A stretch of DNA of 43,517 nucleotides from Naegleria gruberi (lineage: Eukaryota). Under the pieces are notes generated by a model that was not told where the DNA came from, made no database searches, and saw only the letters and a program-made list of their open reading frames with translations. Shown here in pieces: positions 11,280 through 37,485 of the stretch. Both the position numbers and the translations under genes were made by a program. The stretch lies in the NCBI GenBank assembly GCA_000004985.1, contig GG738958.1. The stretch is one strand, 5' to 3'. The first letter of the stretch is position 1. Each line of letters begins with the position of its first letter.

Positions 11280-11636
11280 TTTTGTTTTTTGAAAAGAAAA
11301 TTACATGAAACACGTTTTCATTAAAAAGGCAATCCATAAAGTCTCTTTTTAATGGGGGAGATTCATGTCCACTTTAAGATATCAACACATTCTTTGAAAT
11401 GCTTTCTCGAAGGAGCAATTCATGTAATGCAGCTGTTTACTGCCGTTACATTACAATACGATTGAAAAGGCAAGTAAGTGTTCCAAAAACAGTTGGAAAT
11501 GAAATCTAAATGGAGTGTTTCAAAGGAGATGATAGCTCTTGGCCGGATTGGTATTTTCATGCCTATGGTTAAAAATCTGGTTTGAGAAATTGAGTGGGTG
11601 GAAACTTAGTTTCGAATAATTGTTTATTGGTGAATG

Positions 11637-12083: not shown

Positions 12084-12484
12084 TGTTGTTTAATTTTTTA
12101 TTGAATTACATCTCCTCACAGCGCTTTAGCTGAGGATTAGTTTCGTGGAAATGTAATGCAGACCGAAACTATGAAACCTCAAATTTGGTCATTGATTTCC
12201 TAACTGTTATGAAATTGTAAAGATTAGTTTTAATCTTACCCGTTTCTCTTGAGGATATTGCCTTTAAAAGTCGTTATAATGCACTTTTGTTCTATATGGA
12301 GTCCACATTGTTTTCAATCTTTCGAATATAGACTGTTCAGCATGATGAAATAGAAGTGTTTCATAAACATTTAGCTGACTAATCTTCAGCTAATCTTCAG
12401 CATGCTGTGATTCTTGTTGGTTGTGGTGTAATTGAATGCAATGGAATCCACAGCTGATTGTATCTAGCAGCTCTATTATCCGTC

Positions 12485-15400
12485 NNNNNNNNNNNNNNNN
12501 NNNNNNNNNNNNNNNNNNNNNNNNNNNNNNNNNNNNNNNNNNNNNNNNNNNNNNNNNNNNNNNNNNNNNNNNNNNNNNNNNNNNNNNNNNNNNNNNNNNN
12601 NNNNNNNNNNNNNNNNNNNNNNNNNNNNNNNNNNNNNNNNNNNNNNNNNNNNNNNNNNNNNNNNNNNNNNNNNNNNNNNNNNNNNNNNNNNNNNNNNNNN
12701 NNNNNNNNNNNNNNNNNNNNNNNNNNNNNNNNNNNNNNNNNNNNNNNNNNNNNNNNNNNNNNNNNNNNNNNNNNNNNNNNNNNNNNNNNNNNNNNNNNNN
12801 NNNNNNNNNNNNNNNNNNNNNNNNNNNNNNNNNNNNNNNNNNNNNNNNNNNNNNNNNNNNNNNNNNNNNNNNNNNNNNNNNNNNNNNNNNNNNNNNNNNN
12901 NNNNNNNNNNNNNNNNNNNNNNNNNNNNNNNNNNNNNNNNNNNNNNNNNNNNNNNNNNNNNNNNNNNNNNNNNNNNNNNNNNNNNNNNNNNNNNNNNNNN
13001 NNNNNNNNNNNNNNNNNNNNNNNNNNNNNNNNNNNNNNNNNNNNNNNNNNNNNNNNNNNNNNNNNNNNNNNNNNNNNNNNNNNNNNNNNNNNNNNNNNNN
13101 NNNNNNNNNNNNNNNNNNNNNNNNNNNNNNNNNNNNNNNNNNNNNNNNNNNNNNNNNNNNNNNNNNNNNNNNNNNNNNNNNNNNNNNNNNNNNNNNNNNN
13201 NNNNNNNNNNNNNNNNNNNNNNNNNNNNNNNNNNNNNNNNNNNNNNNNNNNNNNNNNNNNNNNNNNNNNNNNNNNNNNNNNNNNNNNNNNNNNNNNNNNN
13301 NNNNNNNNNNNNNNNNNNNNNNNNNNNNNNNNNNNNNNNNNNNNNNNNNNNNNNNNNNNNNNNNNNNNNNNNNNNNNNNNNNNNNNNNNNNNNNNNNNNN
13401 NNNNNNNNNNNNNNNNNNNNNNNNNNNNNNNNNNNNNNNNNNNNNNNNNNNNNNNNNNNNNNNNNNNNNNNNNNNNNNNNNNNNNNNNNNNNNNNNNNNN
13501 NNNNNNNNNNNNNNNNNNNNNNNNNNNNNNNNNNNNNNNNNNNNNNNNNNNNNNNNNNNNNNNNNNNNNNNNNNNNNNNNNNNNNNNNNNNNNNNNNNNN
13601 NNNNNNNNNNNNNNNNNNNNNNNNNNNNNNNNNNNNNNNNNNNNNNNNNNNNNNNNNNNNNNNNNNNNNNNNNNNNNNNNNNNNNNNNNNNNNNNNNNNN
13701 NNNNNNNNNNNNNNNNNNNNNNNNNNNNNNNNNNNNNNNNNNNNNNNNNNNNNNNNNNNNNNNNNNNNNNNNNNNNNNNNNNNNNNNNNNNNNNNNNNNN
13801 NNNNNNNNNNNNNNNNNNNNNNNNNNNNNNNNNNNNNNNNNNNNNNNNNNNNNNNNNNNNNNNNNNNNNNNNNNNNNNNNNNNNNNNNNNNNNNNNNNNN
13901 NNNNNNNNNNNNNNNNNNNNNNNNNNNNNNNNNNNNNNNNNNNNNNNNNNNNNNNNNNNNNNNNNNNNNNNNNNNNNNNNNNNNNNNNNNNNNNNNNNNN
14001 NNNNNNNNNNNNNNNNNNNNNNNNNNNNNNNNNNNNNNNNNNNNNNNNNNNNNNNNNNNNNNNNNNNNNNNNNNNNNNNNNNNNNNNNNNNNNNNNNNNN
14101 NNNNNNNNNNNNNNNNNNNNNNNNNNNNNNNNNNNNNNNNNNNNNNNNNNNNNNNNNNNNNNNNNNNNNNNNNNNNNNNNNNNNNNNNNNNNNNNNNNNN
14201 NNNNNNNNNNNNNNNNNNNNNNNNNNNNNNNNNNNNNNNNNNNNNNNNNNNNNNNNNNNNNNNNNNNNNNNNNNNNNNNNNNNNNNNNNNNNNNNNNNNN
14301 NNNNNNNNNNNNNNNNNNNNNNNNNNNNNNNNNNNNNNNNNNNNNNNNNNNNNNNNNNNNNNNNNNNNNNNNNNNNNNNNNNNNNNNNNNNNNNNNNNNN
14401 NNNNNNNNNNNNNNNNNNNNNNNNNNNNNNNNNNNNNNNNNNNNNNNNNNNNNNNNNNNNNNNNNNNNNNNNNNNNNNNNNNNNNNNNNNNNNNNNNNNN
14501 NNNNNNNNNNNNNNNNNNNNNNNNNNNNNNNNNNNNNNNNNNNNNNNNNNNNNNNNNNNNNNNNNNNNNNNNNNNNNNNNNNNNNNNNNNNNNNNNNNNN
14601 NNNNNNNNNNNNNNNNNNNNNNNNNNNNNNNNNNNNNNNNNNNNNNNNNNNNNNNNNNNNNNNNNNNNNNNNNNNNNNNNNNNNNNNNNNNNNNNNNNNN
14701 NNNNNNNNNNNNNNNNNNNNNNNNNNNNNNNNNNNNNNNNNNNNNNNNNNNNNNNNNNNNNNNNNNNNNNNNNNNNNNNNNNNNNNNNNNNNNNNNNNNN
14801 NNNNNNNNNNNNNNNNNNNNNNNNNNNNNNNNNNNNNNNNNNNNNNNNNNNNNNNNNNNNNNNNNNNNNNNNNNNNNNNNNNNNNNNNNNNNNNNNNNNN
14901 NNNNNNNNNNNNNNNNNNNNNNNNNNNNNNNNNNNNNNNNNNNNNNNNNNNNNNNNNNNNNNNNNNNNNNNNNNNNNNNNNNNNNNNNNNNNNNNNNNNN
15001 NNNNNNNNNNNNNNNNNNNNNNNNNNNNNNNNNNNNNNNNNNNNNNNNNNNNNNNNNNNNNNNNNNNNNNNNNNNNNNNNNNNNNNNNNNNNNNNNNNNN
15101 NNNNNNNNNNNNNNNNNNNNNNNNNNNNNNNNNNNNNNNNNNNNNNNNNNNNNNNNNNNNNNNNNNNNNNNNNNNNNNNNNNNNNNNNNNNNNNNNNNNN
15201 NNNNNNNNNNNNNNNNNNNNNNNNNNNNNNNNNNNNNNNNNNNNNNNNNNNNNNNNNNNNNNNNNNNNNNNNNNNNNNNNNNNNNNNNNNNNNNNNNNNN
15301 NNNNNNNNNNNNNNNNNNNNNNNNNNNNNNNNNNNNNNNNNNNNNNNNNNNNNNNNNNNNNNNNNNNNNNNNNNNNNNNNNNNNNNNNNNNNNNNNNNNN

Positions 15401-18400
15401 NNNNNNNNNNNNNNNNNNNNNNNNNNNNNNNNNNNNNNNNNNNNNNNNNNNNNNNNNNNNNNNNNNNNNNNNNNNNNNNNNNNNNNNNNNNNNNNNNNNN
15501 NNNNNNNNNNNNNNNNNNNNNNNNNNNNNNNNNNNNNNNNNNNNNNNNNNNNNNNNNNNNNNNNNNNNNNNNNNNNNNNNNNNNNNNNNNNNNNNNNNNN
15601 NNNNNNNNNNNNNNNNNNNNNNNNNNNNNNNNNNNNNNNNNNNNNNNNNNNNNNNNNNNNNNNNNNNNNNNNNNNNNNNNNNNNNNNNNNNNNNNNNNNN
15701 NNNNNNNNNNNNNNNNNNNNNNNNNNNNNNNNNNNNNNNNNNNNNNNNNNNNNNNNNNNNNNNNNNNNNNNNNNNNNNNNNNNNNNNNNNNNNNNNNNNN
15801 NNNNNNNNNNNNNNNNNNNNNNNNNNNNNNNNNNNNNNNNNNNNNNNNNNNNNNNNNNNNNNNNNNNNNNNNNNNNNNNNNNNNNNNNNNNNNNNNNNNN
15901 NNNNNNNNNNNNNNNNNNNNNNNNNNNNNNNNNNNNNNNNNNNNNNNNNNNNNNNNNNNNNNNNNNNNNNNNNNNNNNNNNNNNNNNNNNNNNNNNNNNN
16001 NNNNNNNNNNNNNNNNNNNNNNNNNNNNNNNNNNNNNNNNNNNNNNNNNNNNNNNNNNNNNNNNNNNNNNNNNNNNNNNNNNNNNNNNNNNNNNNNNNNN
16101 NNNNNNNNNNNNNNNNNNNNNNNNNNNNNNNNNNNNNNNNNNNNNNNNNNNNNNNNNNNNNNNNNNNNNNNNNNNNNNNNNNNNNNNNNNNNNNNNNNNN
16201 NNNNNNNNNNNNNNNNNNNNNNNNNNNNNNNNNNNNNNNNNNNNNNNNNNNNNNNNNNNNNNNNNNNNNNNNNNNNNNNNNNNNNNNNNNNNNNNNNNNN
16301 NNNNNNNNNNNNNNNNNNNNNNNNNNNNNNNNNNNNNNNNNNNNNNNNNNNNNNNNNNNNNNNNNNNNNNNNNNNNNNNNNNNNNNNNNNNNNNNNNNNN
16401 NNNNNNNNNNNNNNNNNNNNNNNNNNNNNNNNNNNNNNNNNNNNNNNNNNNNNNNNNNNNNNNNNNNNNNNNNNNNNNNNNNNNNNNNNNNNNNNNNNNN
16501 NNNNNNNNNNNNNNNNNNNNNNNNNNNNNNNNNNNNNNNNNNNNNNNNNNNNNNNNNNNNNNNNNNNNNNNNNNNNNNNNNNNNNNNNNNNNNNNNNNNN
16601 NNNNNNNNNNNNNNNNNNNNNNNNNNNNNNNNNNNNNNNNNNNNNNNNNNNNNNNNNNNNNNNNNNNNNNNNNNNNNNNNNNNNNNNNNNNNNNNNNNNN
16701 NNNNNNNNNNNNNNNNNNNNNNNNNNNNNNNNNNNNNNNNNNNNNNNNNNNNNNNNNNNNNNNNNNNNNNNNNNNNNNNNNNNNNNNNNNNNNNNNNNNN
16801 NNNNNNNNNNNNNNNNNNNNNNNNNNNNNNNNNNNNNNNNNNNNNNNNNNNNNNNNNNNNNNNNNNNNNNNNNNNNNNNNNNNNNNNNNNNNNNNNNNNN
16901 NNNNNNNNNNNNNNNNNNNNNNNNNNNNNNNNNNNNNNNNNNNNNNNNNNNNNNNNNNNNNNNNNNNNNNNNNNNNNNNNNNNNNNNNNNNNNNNNNNNN
17001 NNNNNNNNNNNNNNNNNNNNNNNNNNNNNNNNNNNNNNNNNNNNNNNNNNNNNNNNNNNNNNNNNNNNNNNNNNNNNNNNNNNNNNNNNNNNNNNNNNNN
17101 NNNNNNNNNNNNNNNNNNNNNNNNNNNNNNNNNNNNNNNNNNNNNNNNNNNNNNNNNNNNNNNNNNNNNNNNNNNNNNNNNNNNNNNNNNNNNNNNNNNN
17201 NNNNNNNNNNNNNNNNNNNNNNNNNNNNNNNNNNNNNNNNNNNNNNNNNNNNNNNNNNNNNNNNNNNNNNNNNNNNNNNNNNNNNNNNNNNNNNNNNNNN
17301 NNNNNNNNNNNNNNNNNNNNNNNNNNNNNNNNNNNNNNNNNNNNNNNNNNNNNNNNNNNNNNNNNNNNNNNNNNNNNNNNNNNNNNNNNNNNNNNNNNNN
17401 NNNNNNNNNNNNNNNNNNNNNNNNNNNNNNNNNNNNNNNNNNNNNNNNNNNNNNNNNNNNNNNNNNNNNNNNNNNNNNNNNNNNNNNNNNNNNNNNNNNN
17501 NNNNNNNNNNNNNNNNNNNNNNNNNNNNNNNNNNNNNNNNNNNNNNNNNNNNNNNNNNNNNNNNNNNNNNNNNNNNNNNNNNNNNNNNNNNNNNNNNNNN
17601 NNNNNNNNNNNNNNNNNNNNNNNNNNNNNNNNNNNNNNNNNNNNNNNNNNNNNNNNNNNNNNNNNNNNNNNNNNNNNNNNNNNNNNNNNNNNNNNNNNNN
17701 NNNNNNNNNNNNNNNNNNNNNNNNNNNNNNNNNNNNNNNNNNNNNNNNNNNNNNNNNNNNNNNNNNNNNNNNNNNNNNNNNNNNNNNNNNNNNNNNNNNN
17801 NNNNNNNNNNNNNNNNNNNNNNNNNNNNNNNNNNNNNNNNNNNNNNNNNNNNNNNNNNNNNNNNNNNNNNNNNNNNNNNNNNNNNNNNNNNNNNNNNNNN
17901 NNNNNNNNNNNNNNNNNNNNNNNNNNNNNNNNNNNNNNNNNNNNNNNNNNNNNNNNNNNNNNNNNNNNNNNNNNNNNNNNNNNNNNNNNNNNNNNNNNNN
18001 NNNNNNNNNNNNNNNNNNNNNNNNNNNNNNNNNNNNNNNNNNNNNNNNNNNNNNNNNNNNNNNNNNNNNNNNNNNNNNNNNNNNNNNNNNNNNNNNNNNN
18101 NNNNNNNNNNNNNNNNNNNNNNNNNNNNNNNNNNNNNNNNNNNNNNNNNNNNNNNNNNNNNNNNNNNNNNNNNNNNNNNNNNNNNNNNNNNNNNNNNNNN
18201 NNNNNNNNNNNNNNNNNNNNNNNNNNNNNNNNNNNNNNNNNNNNNNNNNNNNNNNNNNNNNNNNNNNNNNNNNNNNNNNNNNNNNNNNNNNNNNNNNNNN
18301 NNNNNNNNNNNNNNNNNNNNNNNNNNNNNNNNNNNNNNNNNNNNNNNNNNNNNNNNNNNNNNNNNNNNNNNNNNNNNNNNNNNNNNNNNNNNNNNNNNNN

Positions 18401-21400
18401 NNNNNNNNNNNNNNNNNNNNNNNNNNNNNNNNNNNNNNNNNNNNNNNNNNNNNNNNNNNNNNNNNNNNNNNNNNNNNNNNNNNNNNNNNNNNNNNNNNNN
18501 NNNNNNNNNNNNNNNNNNNNNNNNNNNNNNNNNNNNNNNNNNNNNNNNNNNNNNNNNNNNNNNNNNNNNNNNNNNNNNNNNNNNNNNNNNNNNNNNNNNN
18601 NNNNNNNNNNNNNNNNNNNNNNNNNNNNNNNNNNNNNNNNNNNNNNNNNNNNNNNNNNNNNNNNNNNNNNNNNNNNNNNNNNNNNNNNNNNNNNNNNNNN
18701 NNNNNNNNNNNNNNNNNNNNNNNNNNNNNNNNNNNNNNNNNNNNNNNNNNNNNNNNNNNNNNNNNNNNNNNNNNNNNNNNNNNNNNNNNNNNNNNNNNNN
18801 NNNNNNNNNNNNNNNNNNNNNNNNNNNNNNNNNNNNNNNNNNNNNNNNNNNNNNNNNNNNNNNNNNNNNNNNNNNNNNNNNNNNNNNNNNNNNNNNNNNN
18901 NNNNNNNNNNNNNNNNNNNNNNNNNNNNNNNNNNNNNNNNNNNNNNNNNNNNNNNNNNNNNNNNNNNNNNNNNNNNNNNNNNNNNNNNNNNNNNNNNNNN
19001 NNNNNNNNNNNNNNNNNNNNNNNNNNNNNNNNNNNNNNNNNNNNNNNNNNNNNNNNNNNNNNNNNNNNNNNNNNNNNNNNNNNNNNNNNNNNNNNNNNNN
19101 NNNNNNNNNNNNNNNNNNNNNNNNNNNNNNNNNNNNNNNNNNNNNNNNNNNNNNNNNNNNNNNNNNNNNNNNNNNNNNNNNNNNNNNNNNNNNNNNNNNN
19201 NNNNNNNNNNNNNNNNNNNNNNNNNNNNNNNNNNNNNNNNNNNNNNNNNNNNNNNNNNNNNNNNNNNNNNNNNNNNNNNNNNNNNNNNNNNNNNNNNNNN
19301 NNNNNNNNNNNNNNNNNNNNNNNNNNNNNNNNNNNNNNNNNNNNNNNNNNNNNNNNNNNNNNNNNNNNNNNNNNNNNNNNNNNNNNNNNNNNNNNNNNNN
19401 NNNNNNNNNNNNNNNNNNNNNNNNNNNNNNNNNNNNNNNNNNNNNNNNNNNNNNNNNNNNNNNNNNNNNNNNNNNNNNNNNNNNNNNNNNNNNNNNNNNN
19501 NNNNNNNNNNNNNNNNNNNNNNNNNNNNNNNNNNNNNNNNNNNNNNNNNNNNNNNNNNNNNNNNNNNNNNNNNNNNNNNNNNNNNNNNNNNNNNNNNNNN
19601 NNNNNNNNNNNNNNNNNNNNNNNNNNNNNNNNNNNNNNNNNNNNNNNNNNNNNNNNNNNNNNNNNNNNNNNNNNNNNNNNNNNNNNNNNNNNNNNNNNNN
19701 NNNNNNNNNNNNNNNNNNNNNNNNNNNNNNNNNNNNNNNNNNNNNNNNNNNNNNNNNNNNNNNNNNNNNNNNNNNNNNNNNNNNNNNNNNNNNNNNNNNN
19801 NNNNNNNNNNNNNNNNNNNNNNNNNNNNNNNNNNNNNNNNNNNNNNNNNNNNNNNNNNNNNNNNNNNNNNNNNNNNNNNNNNNNNNNNNNNNNNNNNNNN
19901 NNNNNNNNNNNNNNNNNNNNNNNNNNNNNNNNNNNNNNNNNNNNNNNNNNNNNNNNNNNNNNNNNNNNNNNNNNNNNNNNNNNNNNNNNNNNNNNNNNNN
20001 NNNNNNNNNNNNNNNNNNNNNNNNNNNNNNNNNNNNNNNNNNNNNNNNNNNNNNNNNNNNNNNNNNNNNNNNNNNNNNNNNNNNNNNNNNNNNNNNNNNN
20101 NNNNNNNNNNNNNNNNNNNNNNNNNNNNNNNNNNNNNNNNNNNNNNNNNNNNNNNNNNNNNNNNNNNNNNNNNNNNNNNNNNNNNNNNNNNNNNNNNNNN
20201 NNNNNNNNNNNNNNNNNNNNNNNNNNNNNNNNNNNNNNNNNNNNNNNNNNNNNNNNNNNNNNNNNNNNNNNNNNNNNNNNNNNNNNNNNNNNNNNNNNNN
20301 NNNNNNNNNNNNNNNNNNNNNNNNNNNNNNNNNNNNNNNNNNNNNNNNNNNNNNNNNNNNNNNNNNNNNNNNNNNNNNNNNNNNNNNNNNNNNNNNNNNN
20401 NNNNNNNNNNNNNNNNNNNNNNNNNNNNNNNNNNNNNNNNNNNNNNNNNNNNNNNNNNNNNNNNNNNNNNNNNNNNNNNNNNNNNNNNNNNNNNNNNNNN
20501 NNNNNNNNNNNNNNNNNNNNNNNNNNNNNNNNNNNNNNNNNNNNNNNNNNNNNNNNNNNNNNNNNNNNNNNNNNNNNNNNNNNNNNNNNNNNNNNNNNNN
20601 NNNNNNNNNNNNNNNNNNNNNNNNNNNNNNNNNNNNNNNNNNNNNNNNNNNNNNNNNNNNNNNNNNNNNNNNNNNNNNNNNNNNNNNNNNNNNNNNNNNN
20701 NNNNNNNNNNNNNNNNNNNNNNNNNNNNNNNNNNNNNNNNNNNNNNNNNNNNNNNNNNNNNNNNNNNNNNNNNNNNNNNNNNNNNNNNNNNNNNNNNNNN
20801 NNNNNNNNNNNNNNNNNNNNNNNNNNNNNNNNNNNNNNNNNNNNNNNNNNNNNNNNNNNNNNNNNNNNNNNNNNNNNNNNNNNNNNNNNNNNNNNNNNNN
20901 NNNNNNNNNNNNNNNNNNNNNNNNNNNNNNNNNNNNNNNNNNNNNNNNNNNNNNNNNNNNNNNNNNNNNNNNNNNNNNNNNNNNNNNNNNNNNNNNNNNN
21001 NNNNNNNNNNNNNNNNNNNNNNNNNNNNNNNNNNNNNNNNNNNNNNNNNNNNNNNNNNNNNNNNNNNNNNNNNNNNNNNNNNNNNNNNNNNNNNNNNNNN
21101 NNNNNNNNNNNNNNNNNNNNNNNNNNNNNNNNNNNNNNNNNNNNNNNNNNNNNNNNNNNNNNNNNNNNNNNNNNNNNNNNNNNNNNNNNNNNNNNNNNNN
21201 NNNNNNNNNNNNNNNNNNNNNNNNNNNNNNNNNNNNNNNNNNNNNNNNNNNNNNNNNNNNNNNNNNNNNNNNNNNNNNNNNNNNNNNNNNNNNNNNNNNN
21301 NNNNNNNNNNNNNNNNNNNNNNNNNNNNNNNNNNNNNNNNNNNNNNNNNNNNNNNNNNNNNNNNNNNNNNNNNNNNNNNNNNNNNNNNNNNNNNNNNNNN

Positions 21401-24400: not shown

Positions 24401-27400
24401 NNNNNNNNNNNNNNNNNNNNNNNNNNNNNNNNNNNNNNNNNNNNNNNNNNNNNNNNNNNNNNNNNNNNNNNNNNNNNNNNNNNNNNNNNNNNNNNNNNNN
24501 NNNNNNNNNNNNNNNNNNNNNNNNNNNNNNNNNNNNNNNNNNNNNNNNNNNNNNNNNNNNNNNNNNNNNNNNNNNNNNNNNNNNNNNNNNNNNNNNNNNN
24601 NNNNNNNNNNNNNNNNNNNNNNNNNNNNNNNNNNNNNNNNNNNNNNNNNNNNNNNNNNNNNNNNNNNNNNNNNNNNNNNNNNNNNNNNNNNNNNNNNNNN
24701 NNNNNNNNNNNNNNNNNNNNNNNNNNNNNNNNNNNNNNNNNNNNNNNNNNNNNNNNNNNNNNNNNNNNNNNNNNNNNNNNNNNNNNNNNNNNNNNNNNNN
24801 NNNNNNNNNNNNNNNNNNNNNNNNNNNNNNNNNNNNNNNNNNNNNNNNNNNNNNNNNNNNNNNNNNNNNNNNNNNNNNNNNNNNNNNNNNNNNNNNNNNN
24901 NNNNNNNNNNNNNNNNNNNNNNNNNNNNNNNNNNNNNNNNNNNNNNNNNNNNNNNNNNNNNNNNNNNNNNNNNNNNNNNNNNNNNNNNNNNNNNNNNNNN
25001 NNNNNNNNNNNNNNNNNNNNNNNNNNNNNNNNNNNNNNNNNNNNNNNNNNNNNNNNNNNNNNNNNNNNNNNNNNNNNNNNNNNNNNNNNNNNNNNNNNNN
25101 NNNNNNNNNNNNNNNNNNNNNNNNNNNNNNNNNNNNNNNNNNNNNNNNNNNNNNNNNNNNNNNNNNNNNNNNNNNNNNNNNNNNNNNNNNNNNNNNNNNN
25201 NNNNNNNNNNNNNNNNNNNNNNNNNNNNNNNNNNNNNNNNNNNNNNNNNNNNNNNNNNNNNNNNNNNNNNNNNNNNNNNNNNNNNNNNNNNNNNNNNNNN
25301 NNNNNNNNNNNNNNNNNNNNNNNNNNNNNNNNNNNNNNNNNNNNNNNNNNNNNNNNNNNNNNNNNNNNNNNNNNNNNNNNNNNNNNNNNNNNNNNNNNNN
25401 NNNNNNNNNNNNNNNNNNNNNNNNNNNNNNNNNNNNNNNNNNNNNNNNNNNNNNNNNNNNNNNNNNNNNNNNNNNNNNNNNNNNNNNNNNNNNNNNNNNN
25501 NNNNNNNNNNNNNNNNNNNNNNNNNNNNNNNNNNNNNNNNNNNNNNNNNNNNNNNNNNNNNNNNNNNNNNNNNNNNNNNNNNNNNNNNNNNNNNNNNNNN
25601 NNNNNNNNNNNNNNNNNNNNNNNNNNNNNNNNNNNNNNNNNNNNNNNNNNNNNNNNNNNNNNNNNNNNNNNNNNNNNNNNNNNNNNNNNNNNNNNNNNNN
25701 NNNNNNNNNNNNNNNNNNNNNNNNNNNNNNNNNNNNNNNNNNNNNNNNNNNNNNNNNNNNNNNNNNNNNNNNNNNNNNNNNNNNNNNNNNNNNNNNNNNN
25801 NNNNNNNNNNNNNNNNNNNNNNNNNNNNNNNNNNNNNNNNNNNNNNNNNNNNNNNNNNNNNNNNNNNNNNNNNNNNNNNNNNNNNNNNNNNNNNNNNNNN
25901 NNNNNNNNNNNNNNNNNNNNNNNNNNNNNNNNNNNNNNNNNNNNNNNNNNNNNNNNNNNNNNNNNNNNNNNNNNNNNNNNNNNNNNNNNNNNNNNNNNNN
26001 NNNNNNNNNNNNNNNNNNNNNNNNNNNNNNNNNNNNNNNNNNNNNNNNNNNNNNNNNNNNNNNNNNNNNNNNNNNNNNNNNNNNNNNNNNNNNNNNNNNN
26101 NNNNNNNNNNNNNNNNNNNNNNNNNNNNNNNNNNNNNNNNNNNNNNNNNNNNNNNNNNNNNNNNNNNNNNNNNNNNNNNNNNNNNNNNNNNNNNNNNNNN
26201 NNNNNNNNNNNNNNNNNNNNNNNNNNNNNNNNNNNNNNNNNNNNNNNNNNNNNNNNNNNNNNNNNNNNNNNNNNNNNNNNNNNNNNNNNNNNNNNNNNNN
26301 NNNNNNNNNNNNNNNNNNNNNNNNNNNNNNNNNNNNNNNNNNNNNNNNNNNNNNNNNNNNNNNNNNNNNNNNNNNNNNNNNNNNNNNNNNNNNNNNNNNN
26401 NNNNNNNNNNNNNNNNNNNNNNNNNNNNNNNNNNNNNNNNNNNNNNNNNNNNNNNNNNNNNNNNNNNNNNNNNNNNNNNNNNNNNNNNNNNNNNNNNNNN
26501 NNNNNNNNNNNNNNNNNNNNNNNNNNNNNNNNNNNNNNNNNNNNNNNNNNNNNNNNNNNNNNNNNNNNNNNNNNNNNNNNNNNNNNNNNNNNNNNNNNNN
26601 NNNNNNNNNNNNNNNNNNNNNNNNNNNNNNNNNNNNNNNNNNNNNNNNNNNNNNNNNNNNNNNNNNNNNNNNNNNNNNNNNNNNNNNNNNNNNNNNNNNN
26701 NNNNNNNNNNNNNNNNNNNNNNNNNNNNNNNNNNNNNNNNNNNNNNNNNNNNNNNNNNNNNNNNNNNNNNNNNNNNNNNNNNNNNNNNNNNNNNNNNNNN
26801 NNNNNNNNNNNNNNNNNNNNNNNNNNNNNNNNNNNNNNNNNNNNNNNNNNNNNNNNNNNNNNNNNNNNNNNNNNNNNNNNNNNNNNNNNNNNNNNNNNNN
26901 NNNNNNNNNNNNNNNNNNNNNNNNNNNNNNNNNNNNNNNNNNNNNNNNNNNNNNNNNNNNNNNNNNNNNNNNNNNNNNNNNNNNNNNNNNNNNNNNNNNN
27001 NNNNNNNNNNNNNNNNNNNNNNNNNNNNNNNNNNNNNNNNNNNNNNNNNNNNNNNNNNNNNNNNNNNNNNNNNNNNNNNNNNNNNNNNNNNNNNNNNNNN
27101 NNNNNNNNNNNNNNNNNNNNNNNNNNNNNNNNNNNNNNNNNNNNNNNNNNNNNNNNNNNNNNNNNNNNNNNNNNNNNNNNNNNNNNNNNNNNNNNNNNNN
27201 NNNNNNNNNNNNNNNNNNNNNNNNNNNNNNNNNNNNNNNNNNNNNNNNNNNNNNNNNNNNNNNNNNNNNNNNNNNNNNNNNNNNNNNNNNNNNNNNNNNN
27301 NNNNNNNNNNNNNNNNNNNNNNNNNNNNNNNNNNNNNNNNNNNNNNNNNNNNNNNNNNNNNNNNNNNNNNNNNNNNNNNNNNNNNNNNNNNNNNNNNNNN

Positions 27401-30400
27401 NNNNNNNNNNNNNNNNNNNNNNNNNNNNNNNNNNNNNNNNNNNNNNNNNNNNNNNNNNNNNNNNNNNNNNNNNNNNNNNNNNNNNNNNNNNNNNNNNNNN
27501 NNNNNNNNNNNNNNNNNNNNNNNNNNNNNNNNNNNNNNNNNNNNNNNNNNNNNNNNNNNNNNNNNNNNNNNNNNNNNNNNNNNNNNNNNNNNNNNNNNNN
27601 NNNNNNNNNNNNNNNNNNNNNNNNNNNNNNNNNNNNNNNNNNNNNNNNNNNNNNNNNNNNNNNNNNNNNNNNNNNNNNNNNNNNNNNNNNNNNNNNNNNN
27701 NNNNNNNNNNNNNNNNNNNNNNNNNNNNNNNNNNNNNNNNNNNNNNNNNNNNNNNNNNNNNNNNNNNNNNNNNNNNNNNNNNNNNNNNNNNNNNNNNNNN
27801 NNNNNNNNNNNNNNNNNNNNNNNNNNNNNNNNNNNNNNNNNNNNNNNNNNNNNNNNNNNNNNNNNNNNNNNNNNNNNNNNNNNNNNNNNNNNNNNNNNNN
27901 NNNNNNNNNNNNNNNNNNNNNNNNNNNNNNNNNNNNNNNNNNNNNNNNNNNNNNNNNNNNNNNNNNNNNNNNNNNNNNNNNNNNNNNNNNNNNNNNNNNN
28001 NNNNNNNNNNNNNNNNNNNNNNNNNNNNNNNNNNNNNNNNNNNNNNNNNNNNNNNNNNNNNNNNNNNNNNNNNNNNNNNNNNNNNNNNNNNNNNNNNNNN
28101 NNNNNNNNNNNNNNNNNNNNNNNNNNNNNNNNNNNNNNNNNNNNNNNNNNNNNNNNNNNNNNNNNNNNNNNNNNNNNNNNNNNNNNNNNNNNNNNNNNNN
28201 NNNNNNNNNNNNNNNNNNNNNNNNNNNNNNNNNNNNNNNNNNNNNNNNNNNNNNNNNNNNNNNNNNNNNNNNNNNNNNNNNNNNNNNNNNNNNNNNNNNN
28301 NNNNNNNNNNNNNNNNNNNNNNNNNNNNNNNNNNNNNNNNNNNNNNNNNNNNNNNNNNNNNNNNNNNNNNNNNNNNNNNNNNNNNNNNNNNNNNNNNNNN
28401 NNNNNNNNNNNNNNNNNNNNNNNNNNNNNNNNNNNNNNNNNNNNNNNNNNNNNNNNNNNNNNNNNNNNNNNNNNNNNNNNNNNNNNNNNNNNNNNNNNNN
28501 NNNNNNNNNNNNNNNNNNNNNNNNNNNNNNNNNNNNNNNNNNNNNNNNNNNNNNNNNNNNNNNNNNNNNNNNNNNNNNNNNNNNNNNNNNNNNNNNNNNN
28601 NNNNNNNNNNNNNNNNNNNNNNNNNNNNNNNNNNNNNNNNNNNNNNNNNNNNNNNNNNNNNNNNNNNNNNNNNNNNNNNNNNNNNNNNNNNNNNNNNNNN
28701 NNNNNNNNNNNNNNNNNNNNNNNNNNNNNNNNNNNNNNNNNNNNNNNNNNNNNNNNNNNNNNNNNNNNNNNNNNNNNNNNNNNNNNNNNNNNNNNNNNNN
28801 NNNNNNNNNNNNNNNNNNNNNNNNNNNNNNNNNNNNNNNNNNNNNNNNNNNNNNNNNNNNNNNNNNNNNNNNNNNNNNNNNNNNNNNNNNNNNNNNNNNN
28901 NNNNNNNNNNNNNNNNNNNNNNNNNNNNNNNNNNNNNNNNNNNNNNNNNNNNNNNNNNNNNNNNNNNNNNNNNNNNNNNNNNNNNNNNNNNNNNNNNNNN
29001 NNNNNNNNNNNNNNNNNNNNNNNNNNNNNNNNNNNNNNNNNNNNNNNNNNNNNNNNNNNNNNNNNNNNNNNNNNNNNNNNNNNNNNNNNNNNNNNNNNNN
29101 NNNNNNNNNNNNNNNNNNNNNNNNNNNNNNNNNNNNNNNNNNNNNNNNNNNNNNNNNNNNNNNNNNNNNNNNNNNNNNNNNNNNNNNNNNNNNNNNNNNN
29201 NNNNNNNNNNNNNNNNNNNNNNNNNNNNNNNNNNNNNNNNNNNNNNNNNNNNNNNNNNNNNNNNNNNNNNNNNNNNNNNNNNNNNNNNNNNNNNNNNNNN
29301 NNNNNNNNNNNNNNNNNNNNNNNNNNNNNNNNNNNNNNNNNNNNNNNNNNNNNNNNNNNNNNNNNNNNNNNNNNNNNNNNNNNNNNNNNNNNNNNNNNNN
29401 NNNNNNNNNNNNNNNNNNNNNNNNNNNNNNNNNNNNNNNNNNNNNNNNNNNNNNNNNNNNNNNNNNNNNNNNNNNNNNNNNNNNNNNNNNNNNNNNNNNN
29501 NNNNNNNNNNNNNNNNNNNNNNNNNNNNNNNNNNNNNNNNNNNNNNNNNNNNNNNNNNNNNNNNNNNNNNNNNNNNNNNNNNNNNNNNNNNNNNNNNNNN
29601 NNNNNNNNNNNNNNNNNNNNNNNNNNNNNNNNNNNNNNNNNNNNNNNNNNNNNNNNNNNNNNNNNNNNNNNNNNNNNNNNNNNNNNNNNNNNNNNNNNNN
29701 NNNNNNNNNNNNNNNNNNNNNNNNNNNNNNNNNNNNNNNNNNNNNNNNNNNNNNNNNNNNNNNNNNNNNNNNNNNNNNNNNNNNNNNNNNNNNNNNNNNN
29801 NNNNNNNNNNNNNNNNNNNNNNNNNNNNNNNNNNNNNNNNNNNNNNNNNNNNNNNNNNNNNNNNNNNNNNNNNNNNNNNNNNNNNNNNNNNNNNNNNNNN
29901 NNNNNNNNNNNNNNNNNNNNNNNNNNNNNNNNNNNNNNNNNNNNNNNNNNNNNNNNNNNNNNNNNNNNNNNNNNNNNNNNNNNNNNNNNNNNNNNNNNNN
30001 NNNNNNNNNNNNNNNNNNNNNNNNNNNNNNNNNNNNNNNNNNNNNNNNNNNNNNNNNNNNNNNNNNNNNNNNNNNNNNNNNNNNNNNNNNNNNNNNNNNN
30101 NNNNNNNNNNNNNNNNNNNNNNNNNNNNNNNNNNNNNNNNNNNNNNNNNNNNNNNNNNNNNNNNNNNNNNNNNNNNNNNNNNNNNNNNNNNNNNNNNNNN
30201 NNNNNNNNNNNNNNNNNNNNNNNNNNNNNNNNNNNNNNNNNNNNNNNNNNNNNNNNNNNNNNNNNNNNNNNNNNNNNNNNNNNNNNNNNNNNNNNNNNNN
30301 NNNNNNNNNNNNNNNNNNNNNNNNNNNNNNNNNNNNNNNNNNNNNNNNNNNNNNNNNNNNNNNNNNNNNNNNNNNNNNNNNNNNNNNNNNNNNNNNNNNN

Positions 30401-33400
30401 NNNNNNNNNNNNNNNNNNNNNNNNNNNNNNNNNNNNNNNNNNNNNNNNNNNNNNNNNNNNNNNNNNNNNNNNNNNNNNNNNNNNNNNNNNNNNNNNNNNN
30501 NNNNNNNNNNNNNNNNNNNNNNNNNNNNNNNNNNNNNNNNNNNNNNNNNNNNNNNNNNNNNNNNNNNNNNNNNNNNNNNNNNNNNNNNNNNNNNNNNNNN
30601 NNNNNNNNNNNNNNNNNNNNNNNNNNNNNNNNNNNNNNNNNNNNNNNNNNNNNNNNNNNNNNNNNNNNNNNNNNNNNNNNNNNNNNNNNNNNNNNNNNNN
30701 NNNNNNNNNNNNNNNNNNNNNNNNNNNNNNNNNNNNNNNNNNNNNNNNNNNNNNNNNNNNNNNNNNNNNNNNNNNNNNNNNNNNNNNNNNNNNNNNNNNN
30801 NNNNNNNNNNNNNNNNNNNNNNNNNNNNNNNNNNNNNNNNNNNNNNNNNNNNNNNNNNNNNNNNNNNNNNNNNNNNNNNNNNNNNNNNNNNNNNNNNNNN
30901 NNNNNNNNNNNNNNNNNNNNNNNNNNNNNNNNNNNNNNNNNNNNNNNNNNNNNNNNNNNNNNNNNNNNNNNNNNNNNNNNNNNNNNNNNNNNNNNNNNNN
31001 NNNNNNNNNNNNNNNNNNNNNNNNNNNNNNNNNNNNNNNNNNNNNNNNNNNNNNNNNNNNNNNNNNNNNNNNNNNNNNNNNNNNNNNNNNNNNNNNNNNN
31101 NNNNNNNNNNNNNNNNNNNNNNNNNNNNNNNNNNNNNNNNNNNNNNNNNNNNNNNNNNNNNNNNNNNNNNNNNNNNNNNNNNNNNNNNNNNNNNNNNNNN
31201 NNNNNNNNNNNNNNNNNNNNNNNNNNNNNNNNNNNNNNNNNNNNNNNNNNNNNNNNNNNNNNNNNNNNNNNNNNNNNNNNNNNNNNNNNNNNNNNNNNNN
31301 NNNNNNNNNNNNNNNNNNNNNNNNNNNNNNNNNNNNNNNNNNNNNNNNNNNNNNNNNNNNNNNNNNNNNNNNNNNNNNNNNNNNNNNNNNNNNNNNNNNN
31401 NNNNNNNNNNNNNNNNNNNNNNNNNNNNNNNNNNNNNNNNNNNNNNNNNNNNNNNNNNNNNNNNNNNNNNNNNNNNNNNNNNNNNNNNNNNNNNNNNNNN
31501 NNNNNNNNNNNNNNNNNNNNNNNNNNNNNNNNNNNNNNNNNNNNNNNNNNNNNNNNNNNNNNNNNNNNNNNNNNNNNNNNNNNNNNNNNNNNNNNNNNNN
31601 NNNNNNNNNNNNNNNNNNNNNNNNNNNNNNNNNNNNNNNNNNNNNNNNNNNNNNNNNNNNNNNNNNNNNNNNNNNNNNNNNNNNNNNNNNNNNNNNNNNN
31701 NNNNNNNNNNNNNNNNNNNNNNNNNNNNNNNNNNNNNNNNNNNNNNNNNNNNNNNNNNNNNNNNNNNNNNNNNNNNNNNNNNNNNNNNNNNNNNNNNNNN
31801 NNNNNNNNNNNNNNNNNNNNNNNNNNNNNNNNNNNNNNNNNNNNNNNNNNNNNNNNNNNNNNNNNNNNNNNNNNNNNNNNNNNNNNNNNNNNNNNNNNNN
31901 NNNNNNNNNNNNNNNNNNNNNNNNNNNNNNNNNNNNNNNNNNNNNNNNNNNNNNNNNNNNNNNNNNNNNNNNNNNNNNNNNNNNNNNNNNNNNNNNNNNN
32001 NNNNNNNNNNNNNNNNNNNNNNNNNNNNNNNNNNNNNNNNNNNNNNNNNNNNNNNNNNNNNNNNNNNNNNNNNNNNNNNNNNNNNNNNNNNNNNNNNNNN
32101 NNNNNNNNNNNNNNNNNNNNNNNNNNNNNNNNNNNNNNNNNNNNNNNNNNNNNNNNNNNNNNNNNNNNNNNNNNNNNNNNNNNNNNNNNNNNNNNNNNNN
32201 NNNNNNNNNNNNNNNNNNNNNNNNNNNNNNNNNNNNNNNNNNNNNNNNNNNNNNNNNNNNNNNNNNNNNNNNNNNNNNNNNNNNNNNNNNNNNNNNNNNN
32301 NNNNNNNNNNNNNNNNNNNNNNNNNNNNNNNNNNNNNNNNNNNNNNNNNNNNNNNNNNNNNNNNNNNNNNNNNNNNNNNNNNNNNNNNNNNNNNNNNNNN
32401 NNNNNNNNNNNNNNNNNNNNNNNNNNNNNNNNNNNNNNNNNNNNNNNNNNNNNNNNNNNNNNNNNNNNNNNNNNNNNNNNNNNNNNNNNNNNNNNNNNNN
32501 NNNNNNNNNNNNNNNNNNNNNNNNNNNNNNNNNNNNNNNNNNNNNNNNNNNNNNNNNNNNNNNNNNNNNNNNNNNNNNNNNNNNNNNNNNNNNNNNNNNN
32601 NNNNNNNNNNNNNNNNNNNNNNNNNNNNNNNNNNNNNNNNNNNNNNNNNNNNNNNNNNNNNNNNNNNNNNNNNNNNNNNNNNNNNNNNNNNNNNNNNNNN
32701 NNNNNNNNNNNNNNNNNNNNNNNNNNNNNNNNNNNNNNNNNNNNNNNNNNNNNNNNNNNNNNNNNNNNNNNNNNNNNNNNNNNNNNNNNNNNNNNNNNNN
32801 NNNNNNNNNNNNNNNNNNNNNNNNNNNNNNNNNNNNNNNNNNNNNNNNNNNNNNNNNNNNNNNNNNNNNNNNNNNNNNNNNNNNNNNNNNNNNNNNNNNN
32901 NNNNNNNNNNNNNNNNNNNNNNNNNNNNNNNNNNNNNNNNNNNNNNNNNNNNNNNNNNNNNNNNNNNNNNNNNNNNNNNNNNNNNNNNNNNNNNNNNNNN
33001 NNNNNNNNNNNNNNNNNNNNNNNNNNNNNNNNNNNNNNNNNNNNNNNNNNNNNNNNNNNNNNNNNNNNNNNNNNNNNNNNNNNNNNNNNNNNNNNNNNNN
33101 NNNNNNNNNNNNNNNNNNNNNNNNNNNNNNNNNNNNNNNNNNNNNNNNNNNNNNNNNNNNNNNNNNNNNNNNNNNNNNNNNNNNNNNNNNNNNNNNNNNN
33201 NNNNNNNNNNNNNNNNNNNNNNNNNNNNNNNNNNNNNNNNNNNNNNNNNNNNNNNNNNNNNNNNNNNNNNNNNNNNNNNNNNNNNNNNNNNNNNNNNNNN
33301 NNNNNNNNNNNNNNNNNNNNNNNNNNNNNNNNNNNNNNNNNNNNNNNNNNNNNNNNNNNNNNNNNNNNNNNNNNNNNNNNNNNNNNNNNNNNNNNNNNNN

Positions 33401-35698
33401 NNNNNNNNNNNNNNNNNNNNNNNNNNNNNNNNNNNNNNNNNNNNNNNNNNNNNNNNNNNNNNNNNNNNNNNNNNNNNNNNNNNNNNNNNNNNNNNNNNNN
33501 NNNNNNNNNNNNNNNNNNNNNNNNNNNNNNNNNNNNNNNNNNNNNNNNNNNNNNNNNNNNNNNNNNNNNNNNNNNNNNNNNNNNNNNNNNNNNNNNNNNN
33601 NNNNNNNNNNNNNNNNNNNNNNNNNNNNNNNNNNNNNNNNNNNNNNNNNNNNNNNNNNNNNNNNNNNNNNNNNNNNNNNNNNNNNNNNNNNNNNNNNNNN
33701 NNNNNNNNNNNNNNNNNNNNNNNNNNNNNNNNNNNNNNNNNNNNNNNNNNNNNNNNNNNNNNNNNNNNNNNNNNNNNNNNNNNNNNNNNNNNNNNNNNNN
33801 NNNNNNNNNNNNNNNNNNNNNNNNNNNNNNNNNNNNNNNNNNNNNNNNNNNNNNNNNNNNNNNNNNNNNNNNNNNNNNNNNNNNNNNNNNNNNNNNNNNN
33901 NNNNNNNNNNNNNNNNNNNNNNNNNNNNNNNNNNNNNNNNNNNNNNNNNNNNNNNNNNNNNNNNNNNNNNNNNNNNNNNNNNNNNNNNNNNNNNNNNNNN
34001 NNNNNNNNNNNNNNNNNNNNNNNNNNNNNNNNNNNNNNNNNNNNNNNNNNNNNNNNNNNNNNNNNNNNNNNNNNNNNNNNNNNNNNNNNNNNNNNNNNNN
34101 NNNNNNNNNNNNNNNNNNNNNNNNNNNNNNNNNNNNNNNNNNNNNNNNNNNNNNNNNNNNNNNNNNNNNNNNNNNNNNNNNNNNNNNNNNNNNNNNNNNN
34201 NNNNNNNNNNNNNNNNNNNNNNNNNNNNNNNNNNNNNNNNNNNNNNNNNNNNNNNNNNNNNNNNNNNNNNNNNNNNNNNNNNNNNNNNNNNNNNNNNNNN
34301 NNNNNNNNNNNNNNNNNNNNNNNNNNNNNNNNNNNNNNNNNNNNNNNNNNNNNNNNNNNNNNNNNNNNNNNNNNNNNNNNNNNNNNNNNNNNNNNNNNNN
34401 NNNNNNNNNNNNNNNNNNNNNNNNNNNNNNNNNNNNNNNNNNNNNNNNNNNNNNNNNNNNNNNNNNNNNNNNNNNNNNNNNNNNNNNNNNNNNNNNNNNN
34501 NNNNNNNNNNNNNNNNNNNNNNNNNNNNNNNNNNNNNNNNNNNNNNNNNNNNNNNNNNNNNNNNNNNNNNNNNNNNNNNNNNNNNNNNNNNNNNNNNNNN
34601 NNNNNNNNNNNNNNNNNNNNNNNNNNNNNNNNNNNNNNNNNNNNNNNNNNNNNNNNNNNNNNNNNNNNNNNNNNNNNNNNNNNNNNNNNNNNNNNNNNNN
34701 NNNNNNNNNNNNNNNNNNNNNNNNNNNNNNNNNNNNNNNNNNNNNNNNNNNNNNNNNNNNNNNNNNNNNNNNNNNNNNNNNNNNNNNNNNNNNNNNNNNN
34801 NNNNNNNNNNNNNNNNNNNNNNNNNNNNNNNNNNNNNNNNNNNNNNNNNNNNNNNNNNNNNNNNNNNNNNNNNNNNNNNNNNNNNNNNNNNNNNNNNNNN
34901 NNNNNNNNNNNNNNNNNNNNNNNNNNNNNNNNNNNNNNNNNNNNNNNNNNNNNNNNNNNNNNNNNNNNNNNNNNNNNNNNNNNNNNNNNNNNNNNNNNNN
35001 NNNNNNNNNNNNNNNNNNNNNNNNNNNNNNNNNNNNNNNNNNNNNNNNNNNNNNNNNNNNNNNNNNNNNNNNNNNNNNNNNNNNNNNNNNNNNNNNNNNN
35101 NNNNNNNNNNNNNNNNNNNNNNNNNNNNNNNNNNNNNNNNNNNNNNNNNNNNNNNNNNNNNNNNNNNNNNNNNNNNNNNNNNNNNNNNNNNNNNNNNNNN
35201 NNNNNNNNNNNNNNNNNNNNNNNNNNNNNNNNNNNNNNNNNNNNNNNNNNNNNNNNNNNNNNNNNNNNNNNNNNNNNNNNNNNNNNNNNNNNNNNNNNNN
35301 NNNNNNNNNNNNNNNNNNNNNNNNNNNNNNNNNNNNNNNNNNNNNNNNNNNNNNNNNNNNNNNNNNNNNNNNNNNNNNNNNNNNNNNNNNNNNNNNNNNN
35401 NNNNNNNNNNNNNNNNNNNNNNNNNNNNNNNNNNNNNNNNNNNNNNNNNNNNNNNNNNNNNNNNNNNNNNNNNNNNNNNNNNNNNNNNNNNNNNNNNNNN
35501 NNNNNNNNNNNNNNNNNNNNNNNNNNNNNNNNNNNNNNNNNNNNNNNNNNNNNNNNNNNNNNNNNNNNNNNNNNNNNNNNNNNNNNNNNNNNNNNNNNNN
35601 NNNNNNNNNNNNNNNNNNNNNNNNNNNNNNNNNNNNNNNNNNNNNNNNNNNNNNNNNNNNNNNNNNNNNNNNNNNNNNNNNNNNNNNNNNNNNNNNNN
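12485..35698. other. Run of 23,214 N (assembly gap or hard-masked region); content unknowable
   Basis: Direct count from coordinates: first n at 12485, last at 35698. Begins about 400 bp upstream of family member E. Confidence 1.
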
Positions 35699-36051
35699 TC
35701 CAGATATTGCTCCTCCCTTTTGATGATGATTATATTTCCTGTTGTTCGTTATCATTTCTCTCCGATAAAAATCATAAGAAAAAACACACAAGCAGCACCC
35801 GATGCTGTCTCTTTGATTTCAGCACAGTCGCCACACAATCCAAAATTGTTGTGGGTGGCCCTGTTTTTGCTTATTCGTAGTGTGGAGCTTTTTTTTTGTG
35901 TGTTTGATTTGTGGTTTTGCAGAGACATAATTGGCAGAATATCATACACGAATGGGCATGTTCCCAACCCGATATGATCATATCTCACTGTTTACATGTT
36001 TAATGGAACAAACTTGAGAATCTTGAGAATTAAATTGATGTTTTATTTGAG

Positions 36052-37359: not shown

Positions 37360-37485
37360 CACCATTGTTGGTAACATCGACAATAATACGTGGAATCTTA
37401 TTGAGCTTGGCAAGATACATGGCTGTTTGGAAATCTTTAGCAAATTGAACTTCATCTTTTGGAAACAAAGATTCAACAGTAATAA
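37360..37485 (-). CDS. Internal exon of the S41-like gene (5' end truncated by the N run): ...ITVESLFPKDEVQFAKDFQTAMYLAKLNKIPRIIVDVTNNGG
   Basis: See intron evidence. The N-terminal roughly 250-300 aa expected for an S41 domain (PDZ plus signal peptide) must lie in the masked 37486-41735 interval. Confidence 0.75.

What the first reader, a model, noticed from the sequence alone, without database searches (positions are those of the whole stretch)
12485..35698. 23.2-kb unreadable block immediately downstream of the paralog array
53% of the window is N. The block begins about 400 bp beyond member E, on the side where further array members, the upstream neighbours of the S41-like gene, or a collapsed repeat (transposon cluster, rDNA or satellite) could sit. 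The readable 350 bp on its far side (35699-36050) is compositionally distinct from the rest of the window: GC-richer, for example cagcacccgatgctgtctc and gtgggtggccctg. That suggests a different sequence class next to the gap or simply a 3' UTR. Anything hidden here cannot be evaluated; the three track ORFs spanning it are artefacts.
Basis: seen in the sequence. Interest (0 to 1): 0.5.

Follow-up and report, generated by a model that had tools for sequence, protein, structure and literature searches.

The report
Assembly gap in redundant Naegleria scaffold
The 23.2-kb run of N is an ordinary sized gap in a small, duplicate scaffold of the 2010 draft genome of the amoeba Naegleria gruberi, and the matching region appears to be assembled and annotated (about ten ordinary genes) on a larger scaffold of the same assembly.

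Summary
The N block is real and sits exactly at 12485-35698 (23,214 N). A second N run, not mentioned in the finding, lies at 37486-41735 (4,250 N), so 63% of the window is N. The window is a complete 43,517-nt scaffold of the Sanger draft of Naegleria gruberi: a 12.5-kb contig plus two contigs of about 1.8 kb. Every annotated gene I could trace here has a near-identical, same-order twin on a 351,708-nt scaffold. Array members B, C, D and E match EFC41098, 41099, 41100 and 41103 at 93-99% identity. The S41-like gene matches EFC41114 at 100% over the readable part. On the window scaffold E and S41 carry consecutive accessions (EFC36018, EFC36019). On the big scaffold ten accessions (EFC41104-41113) separate them, close to the 8.9 genes expected in 23.2 kb. 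None of the ten was found by the array-family profile. Chromosomal rDNA does not exist in Naegleria, and no repeat abuts the gap edges. The "GC-richer" far edge (36.9% vs 33.3%) is within normal variation. My conclusion is a mate-pair-sized scaffold gap in a redundant, probably allelic, scaffold, so this is an assembly artefact and of low interest.

The parts
12485..35698 (.). N run 1 (23,214 nt): a sized scaffold gap, the subject of the finding
   Evidence: One search shows a single run of N. The flanking genes carry consecutive accessions EFC36018 and EFC36019, so nothing is annotated across 23 kb, where 8.9 genes would be expected (Poisson P of zero = 1.3e-4).
37486..41735 (.). N run 2 (4,250 nt): a second scaffold gap. 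It hides the first 337 codons of the S41-like gene and the 3' part of the ORF that enters it from 41738-42280 (-)
   Evidence: P0001 and P0008 carry the missing N-terminal residues, and 'ITVES' is residue 338 of the 787-aa twin.
1..12484 (.). Contig 1 (12,484 nt): RGS gene, tRNA-Ser, DENN/SPA gene, five-member paralog array and an AT-hook-like gene
35699..37485 (.). Contig 2 (1,787 nt): the 3' two-thirds of the S41-like gene plus 353 nt of 3' flank
   Evidence: About the size of a Sanger read pair.
41736..43517 (.). Contig 3 (1,782 nt): the 5' part of an unannotated ORF (41738-42280 -) and an F-box/Ras-like ORF (42778-43398 +)
11637..12083 (-). Array member E = EFC36018.1 (NAEGRDRAFT_76322), the last gene before the gap. 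Its twin is EFC41103.1 on the 351.7-kb scaffold (147/148 identical)
36052..37483 (-). S41-like peptidase gene, readable part (residues 338-787 of the full-length twin), with a 79-nt GT..AG intron at 37281-37359. It is annotated here as the partial EFC36019.1
35699..36051 (.). Far-edge flank: the 3' UTR or spacer downstream of S41. It contains a 92-codon open frame (35699-35974 +) that has no support as coding
   Evidence: GC test. Shuffle test: 53/5000 on the + strand, 147/5000 on either strand. The exhaustive HMMER search found only a repetitive junk ORF at 30% identity. No RNA family matched.
12436..35977 (.). Envelope of the three spanning 'ORFs' (12436-35880 +, 12458-35977 +, 12476-35791 -): artefacts of translating N as X

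Best explanation
The block is a scaffolding gap, not a biological feature. The window is a complete 43,517-nt scaffold of the Sanger whole-genome-shotgun draft of Naegleria gruberi NEG-M. A 12.5-kb contig was linked to two contigs of about 1.8 kb, and the distances were filled with N runs whose odd lengths (23,214 and 4,250) are presumably insert-size estimates from mate pairs (inferred). The scaffold is a redundant second copy, most likely the other allele, of a stretch of a 351,708-nt scaffold of the same assembly. The sequence missing here therefore most likely corresponds to the interval between NAEGRDRAFT_71135 (EFC41103) and NAEGRDRAFT_80844 (EFC41114) on that scaffold, which holds ten annotated protein-coding genes at normal gene density. 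Shown: the N runs, the source organism, the fact that the window is a whole scaffold, the one-to-one same-order twins, and the accession arithmetic. Inferred: that accession order equals map order on the big scaffold, that the two copies are alleles rather than a segmental duplication, and that the gap arose because reads from the less diverged interval were absorbed into the main scaffold.
For: (1): two pure N runs whose lengths are not round numbers. (2): the S41-like product is 100% identical to N. gruberi proteins, and the cluster member EFC36019.1 sits on a contig of exactly 43,517 nt, the window length. (3): the same gene is full length (787 aa, EFC41114.1) on a 351,708-nt scaffold and partial on an 8,124-nt scaffold (EFC35652.1). 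On the window scaffold it is annotated only as a 5'-partial protein, so the deposited record itself lacks the sequence under N run 2. (4): the window genes at 7.2, 10.0, 10.9, 11.6 and 36.1 kb are EFC36015 to 36019, so accessions follow map order. Their twins EFC41098, 41099, 41100 and 41103 occur in the same order at 97%, 93%, 97% and 99% identity. (5): E and S41 are consecutive on the window scaffold but separated by ten accessions on the big scaffold. The assembly averages 2.6 kb per gene, which gives 8.9 genes expected in 23,214 nt. (6): the only difference from both twins in the S41 product is a shifted G in a T run 15-20 nt from the N edge, as expected for a low-quality read end. (7): contigs 2 and 3 are 1,787 and 1,782 nt, about read-pair size. 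(8): the assembly has 1,977 contigs in 784 scaffolds, so roughly 1,190 such gaps exist.
Against: I could not read the DNA of the 351.7-kb scaffold, because N. gruberi gene positions are not in the contig index. Colinearity therefore rests on protein identity and accession order and not on an alignment. The big scaffold carries one array member (EFC41101, D') that has no one-to-one partner in the window, so the two copies differ structurally, and the hidden interval could differ too. Third copies exist for two loci, on 8.1-kb and 15.5-kb scaffolds, and a simple two-allele picture does not by itself explain them. The identities of EFC41104-41113 were not retrieved. The mate-pair origin of the gap sizes is inferred and was not seen in an AGP file.
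Confidence: 0.85

Rival explanations
1. True segmental duplication: the window is a second genomic locus and not an allele, and its gap hides locus-specific sequence that may differ from the interval on the 351.7-kb scaffold.
For: Twin identities vary from 93% to 100% and include indels, and one array member (D', EFC41101) is present only on the big scaffold. Three copies exist for S41 and for member D.
Against: Order is conserved and the match is one-to-one for all traceable genes. The extra copies sit on tiny scaffolds (8.1 and 15.5 kb), some with genes truncated at a scaffold end, which is typical of leftover or allelic pieces. The strain is reported to be heterozygous (PMC9928731 citing Fritz-Laylin 2010). 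Either way the N run is still an assembly gap.
Confidence: 0.1
2. Collapsed or unassemblable repeat: the gap exists because a transposon cluster, satellite or rDNA array in that position could not be assembled.
For: Large gaps in Sanger drafts often coincide with repeats. A metagenome contig from a related strain (L003) also ends at window position 12446, 38 nt before the gap.
Against: No tandem or dispersed repeat abuts either edge. Naegleria has no chromosomal rDNA (PMC10586121, PMC5805870). The genome is only 5.1% repeats. The matching interval on the big scaffold carries ten annotated genes at normal density. The second gap in the same scaffold demonstrably hides ordinary single-gene coding sequence.
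Confidence: 0.04
3. Hard mask instead of a gap: the Ns replace real assembled bases, either through a repeat masker or through deliberate masking by whoever prepared the window.
For: The run lengths are not round numbers, as would also be true for masked intervals. The tool notes say some stretches in one collection are masked.
Against: The public annotation on this very scaffold is truncated at N run 2 (partial EFC36019.1) and has no gene across N run 1. A repeat masker would mask all copies, yet the S41 5' half is annotated on two other scaffolds. There is a base-call-like discrepancy right at the N edge.
Confidence: 0.02

Closest known systems
Sized intra-scaffold gap (assembly_gap with paired-end linkage) in Sanger whole-genome-shotgun drafts
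   Same: An uninterrupted N run of non-round length between contigs. Genes at its borders are truncated and flagged 'partial'. No annotation crosses it. The flanking contigs are very small, about read-pair size.
   Different: Nothing differs in kind. At 23 kb it is large, so it would have needed fosmid-size clones to span it (inferred, not checked in an AGP file).
Haplotig: a redundant allelic scaffold in an assembly of a heterozygous organism
   Same: A small scaffold whose genes match a large scaffold of the same assembly one-to-one and in the same order at 93-100% protein identity, with small indels and one copy-number difference in a fast-evolving tandem array.
   Different: Allelism has not been shown by read depth or by nucleotide alignment. 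Third partial copies on 8.1-kb and 15.5-kb scaffolds show redundancy beyond a simple pair.

Membership tests
Sized scaffold gap in a draft assembly | Uninterrupted run of N between blocks of readable sequence | tested here: met
   12485-35698 is all N (23,214 nt), and a second run lies at 37486-41735.
Sized scaffold gap in a draft assembly | The deposited record itself lacks the sequence, so annotation is absent across the run and truncated at its border | tested here: met
   EFC36018 and EFC36019 are consecutive across N run 1. P of zero genes in 23.2 kb is 1.3e-4 at the genome's density. S41 is annotated as partial on this scaffold but full length elsewhere.
Sized scaffold gap in a draft assembly | Contig ends show read-end quality decay | tested here: inconclusive
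   There is one GT/TG shift in a T run 15-20 nt from the edge of N run 2 relative to both twins. This is suggestive, but it could be a polymorphism. No twin DNA was available for the edges of N run 1.
Sized scaffold gap in a draft assembly | Gap feature with paired-end linkage evidence in the AGP or GenBank record | not testable with these tools
Redundant allelic scaffold (haplotig) | Near-identical genes, one-to-one and in the same order, on a larger scaffold of the same assembly | tested here: met
   B, C, D, E and S41 match EFC41098, 41099, 41100, 41103 and 41114 at 97%, 93%, 97%, 99% and 100%.
Redundant allelic scaffold (haplotig) | Half of normal read depth on both copies, or the same chromosomal position in a phased assembly | not testable with these tools
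   No reads and no long-read N. gruberi assembly were available.
Collapsed repeat (rDNA, satellite or transposon cluster) | Repeat sequence running into the gap at one or both edges | tested here: not met
   TRF finds only trivial two-copy 9-13-mers near the edges. Self-BLAST of the three contigs finds only the paralog array.
Collapsed repeat (rDNA, satellite or transposon cluster) | For rDNA: chromosomal rRNA genes exist in the organism | tested here: not met
   Literature: Naegleria carries rRNA genes only on an extrachromosomal circle of about 14 kb (PMC10586121, PMC5805870). No rRNA match in the window.
Repeat hard mask | The same sequence is masked in every copy in the assembly | tested here: not met
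   The S41 N-terminal half hidden under N run 2 is annotated on the 351.7-kb and 8.1-kb scaffolds.
Continuation of the paralog array into the gap | Family members located between the E twin and the S41 twin on the colinear scaffold | tested here: not met
   The profile search of the five-member alignment found only EFC41098-41101 and 41103 on the big scaffold, and none among 41104-41113. Caveat: unannotated members would be missed, as member A is unannotated on both scaffolds.

The most novel reading that the evidence does not exclude
The gap hides a structural difference specific to this copy, for example a hemizygous insertion, a mobile element or extra members of the fast-evolving paralog array. 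Such a difference would have kept this copy from merging with the 351.7-kb scaffold, so the hidden content would not simply mirror the ten genes on the twin.
Probability: 0.1. Interest if true: 0.25.

Novelty: not a real feature. Interest (0 to 1): 0.05.

Why it matters
It matters mainly as a caution. This window and its 'paralog array next to an unreadable block' come from a low-quality, redundant scaffold, so gene counts, array sizes and 'partial' proteins taken from it double-count a locus that is better represented on a 351.7-kb scaffold. Anyone interested in the small orphan gene family or the S41-like peptidase should work from that scaffold (EFC41098-41114). The block itself says nothing new about biology.

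Tried and rejected
(1) Fetching the source or twin DNA by exact protein look-up failed. Window ORFs, P0001 and P0008 are 'not on record', because N. gruberi gene positions are not indexed.

(2) Synteny in relatives gave nothing. The closest S41 orthologue contigs (L001, a 14-kb ENA metagenome contig; L002, from a 155-kb JGI contig) share only the S41 gene with the window, so neighbours are not conserved.

(3) A concatenated 585-aa query (gap-edge frames, the 'MASYEM...' ORF and the AT-hook-like ORF) returned nothing. One search then showed that the AT-hook-like ORF is exactly EFC36017.1 and is in the collection. One search is therefore a false negative and I use it for nothing.

(4) The exhaustive HMMER search with the 92-aa frame leaving the gap found only a repetitive junk ORF at 30% identity, so I rejected that frame as coding.

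(5) Short metagenome contigs from a related strain (L003, L004; ERZ929261) stop 38 nt short of the left N edge and 314 nt inside the right one, so they do not cross into the gap.

(6) A literature search for the JGI IDs expected in the interval (NAEGRDRAFT_71136-71140, 80844) found no paper.

(7) The 2010 genome paper and the 2011 review are not held, so assembly details come from later papers' tables.

(8) Exact look-ups of the RGS, DENN, member A, member C and Ras-like ORFs failed, presumably because the deposited gene models differ from plain ORFs. Colinearity left of the array and right of S41 is therefore untested.
Full report
OBSERVATION. The first run is 53.3% of the window, and together the two make 63.1%. 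The readable DNA therefore falls into three blocks of 12,484, 1,787 and 1,782 nt. The gap starts 401 nt beyond the start codon of array member E (11637-12083, minus strand).

The claim that the far edge (35699-36050) is compositionally distinct does not hold. Its GC is 36.9% against 33.2 +/- 2.6% for all N-free 352-nt windows, and 9% of those windows reach that value. The richest windows are inside the S41 coding region. The local 100-nt maximum of 48% is matched or exceeded elsewhere: 51% at 1761, which is a tRNA-Ser gene, and 48% at 42181.

SOURCE. The flanking genes are eukaryotic: RGS, DENN/SPA and Ras-like domains. The S41-like ORF next to the gap is 100% identical to 'predicted protein, partial [Naegleria gruberi]'. 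The 90% cluster of that protein has four members:
- EFC36019.1, partial, on a contig of exactly 43,517 nt. This is the window length, so the window is a complete scaffold.
- EFC41114.1 (NAEGRDRAFT_80844), full length at 787 aa, on a 351,708-nt scaffold.
- EFC35652.1, partial, on an 8,124-nt scaffold.
- A metagenome copy from ENA.

The assembly is the Sanger draft of strain NEG-M: 40.9 Mb, 1,977 contigs in 784 scaffolds, 15,711 genes and 5.1% repeats. It therefore holds roughly 1,190 intra-scaffold gaps, and the window has two of them.

THE SECOND N RUN SHOWS WHAT KIND OF N THIS IS. The full-length twin and the 8.1-kb copy both carry the S41 residues that should lie under N run 2. 'ITVES...' at the N edge is residue 338 of 787, so at least 1,011 nt of ordinary coding sequence is hidden there. 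On the window scaffold the gene is annotated only as a 5'-partial protein, so the deposited record lacks that sequence. A repeat mask is excluded, because the same sequence is readable and annotated on two other scaffolds. The only amino-acid difference from both twins in the readable part is ES-LF-PKD against ES-FV-PKD. That corresponds to a G shifted by one position in a T run, 15-20 nt from the N edge. This fits a low-quality read end, although a polymorphism cannot be excluded.

THE WINDOW IS A REDUNDANT COPY OF PART OF THE 351.7-KB SCAFFOLD. A profile of the five array members found seven proteins in 5.8 billion, and cluster look-ups gave their accessions.

On the window scaffold:
- EFC36015 = member B (7193-7651)
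- EFC36016 = member D (10036-10479)
- EFC36017 = the AT-hook-like ORF (10875-11279)
- EFC36018 = member E (11637-12083)
- EFC36019 = S41 (36052 onward)

These are five points in strict map order, and the JGI IDs 76319-76322 run in parallel.

On the big scaffold:
- EFC41098 = B twin (148/152 identical)
- EFC41099 = C twin (128/138)
- EFC41100 = D twin (144/149)
- EFC41101 = an extra member, D', with no one-to-one partner in the window (best match 82%, to D)
- EFC41102 = not identified
- EFC41103 = E twin (147/148)
- EFC41114 = S41

The JGI IDs 71130-71135 run in parallel for the first six. The order is the same and the matches are one-to-one.

WHAT THE GAP MOST LIKELY HIDES. E and S41 are consecutive on the window scaffold but separated by ten accession numbers (EFC41104-41113) on the big scaffold. 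At the assembly's mean of 2.6 kb per gene, 23,214 nt should hold 8.9 genes, and the chance of no gene at all is 1.3e-4. The gap length and the ten-gene interval therefore agree. The absence of any annotation across the block shows that the Ns are in the deposited record. None of the ten is a member of the array family at E <= 0.001, so the twin does not support the idea that the array continues into the gap. The caveat is that unannotated members would be missed, and member A is unannotated on both scaffolds. I could not retrieve the ten proteins themselves.

REPEAT, rDNA AND SATELLITE IDEAS. Tandem Repeats Finder reports only trivial two-copy 9-13-mers near the edges. Self-BLAST of the three contigs finds only the paralog array. 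Rfam and ARAGORN find only the tRNA-Ser at 1768-1848. In Naegleria the rRNA genes are carried only on an extrachromosomal circle of about 14 kb and not in chromosomal DNA (PMC10586121, PMC5805870), so a chromosomal rDNA array is not expected.

THE FAR EDGE. S41 is on the minus strand with its stop at 36052, so 35699-36051 is its 3' flank. A 92-codon frame is open from the N edge to 35974 on the plus strand. Of 5,000 dinucleotide shuffles, 53 (plus strand only) or 147 (either strand) reach that length. The exhaustive HMMER search of 1.84 billion representatives found only a 216-aa internally repetitive ORF at 30% identity. A gene with a twin in the N. gruberi proteome would have matched at high identity.

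MECHANISM. The shown steps are the N runs, the source organism, the whole-scaffold status of the window, the truncated or absent annotation, the same-order twins and the accession arithmetic. The inferred steps are as follows. Mate pairs from large-insert clones linked a 12.5-kb contig to two contigs of about read-pair size. The assembler wrote the estimated distances as Ns. The scaffold is the second allele of a heterozygous strain; heterozygosity in N. gruberi is cited in PMC9928731. Its reads assembled separately only where they diverged or were of poor quality, while reads from the rest were absorbed into the main scaffold. A true segmental duplication cannot be excluded without read depth, and third partial copies on 8.1-kb and 15.5-kb scaffolds show redundancy beyond a simple pair. 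Under either reading the block is an assembly gap.

FAILED OR INVALID STEPS.
- N. gruberi gene positions are not in the contig index.
- Orthologue contigs share no neighbours with the window.
- My concatenated query was a false negative, as shown by the control, and I disregard it.
- Metagenome contigs of a related strain do not cross the N edges.
- The genome paper is not held.
- No paper names the expected genes.

VERDICT. The block is an ordinary sized scaffold gap in a small redundant scaffold. Novelty: not a real feature. Interest: very low.

Noticed in passing
window 37486-41735: A second N run of 4,250 nt, not mentioned in the finding, cuts the S41-like peptidase gene. Residues 1-337 of the 787-aa protein are missing here but present on two other scaffolds of the same assembly (EFC41114.1, EFC35652.1).
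   Followed up: yes
window 5605-12083 (minus strand): A five-member tandem array of small orphan proteins (145-182 aa) with no Pfam domain and conserved 'DET-KT...LRKQL-N...LKNYFV' and C-terminal 'LLQL' motifs. In 5.8 billion proteins the family was found only in N. gruberi, in N. gruberi-like metagenome contigs, and in one more distant Logan contig (P0017). The twin array on the 351.7-kb scaffold has an extra member (D', EFC41101), so copy number differs between the two copies. Member A (5605-6153) is unannotated in the N. gruberi records.
   Followed up: partly
window 1768-1848 (+): A tRNA-Ser(GCT) gene between the RGS and DENN genes. It explains the highest GC peak of the window (51% at about 1761).
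   Followed up: yes
window 37466-37471 (minus strand, 15-20 nt from the N edge): TTGTTT here against TTTGTT implied by both twin proteins (ES-LF-PKD vs ES-FV-PKD). This is probably a base-calling error at a read end. It alters two residues of the S41-like protein on this scaffold.
   Followed up: partly
L003 (= window 11506-12446, 96.0% identity) and L004 (= window 36013-37307, 99.5% identity): An ENA metagenome (ERZ929261, run ERR1078381, PRJEB11402) contains genomic contigs of a strain very close to N. gruberi NEG-M. The array region is much more diverged (96%) than the S41 gene (99.5%). L003 ends 38 nt before the left N edge, which may be coincidence.
   Followed up: partly
window 41738-42280 (minus strand): A 181-codon ORF ('MASYEMQGATSTSP...') runs into N run 2 from the right. 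It has no Pfam domain. The only search that included it was shown to be unreliable, so its status is unknown.
   Followed up: no
window 42778-43398 (+): An ORF with an F-box-like N-terminus (LPTEIL...) followed by the start of a Ras/Roc GTPase domain. It ends in a stop after the P-loop region and probably continues after an intron beyond the readable end of the scaffold.
   Followed up: no
window 36052-37218 (minus strand): The deposited gene model on this scaffold (EFC36019.1, 369 aa) lacks 19 residues of the transmembrane segment (GKAFFGIIISLCALFLIFA) that are present in the plain ORF and in the full-length twin. This looks like a spurious predicted intron.
   Followed up: partly
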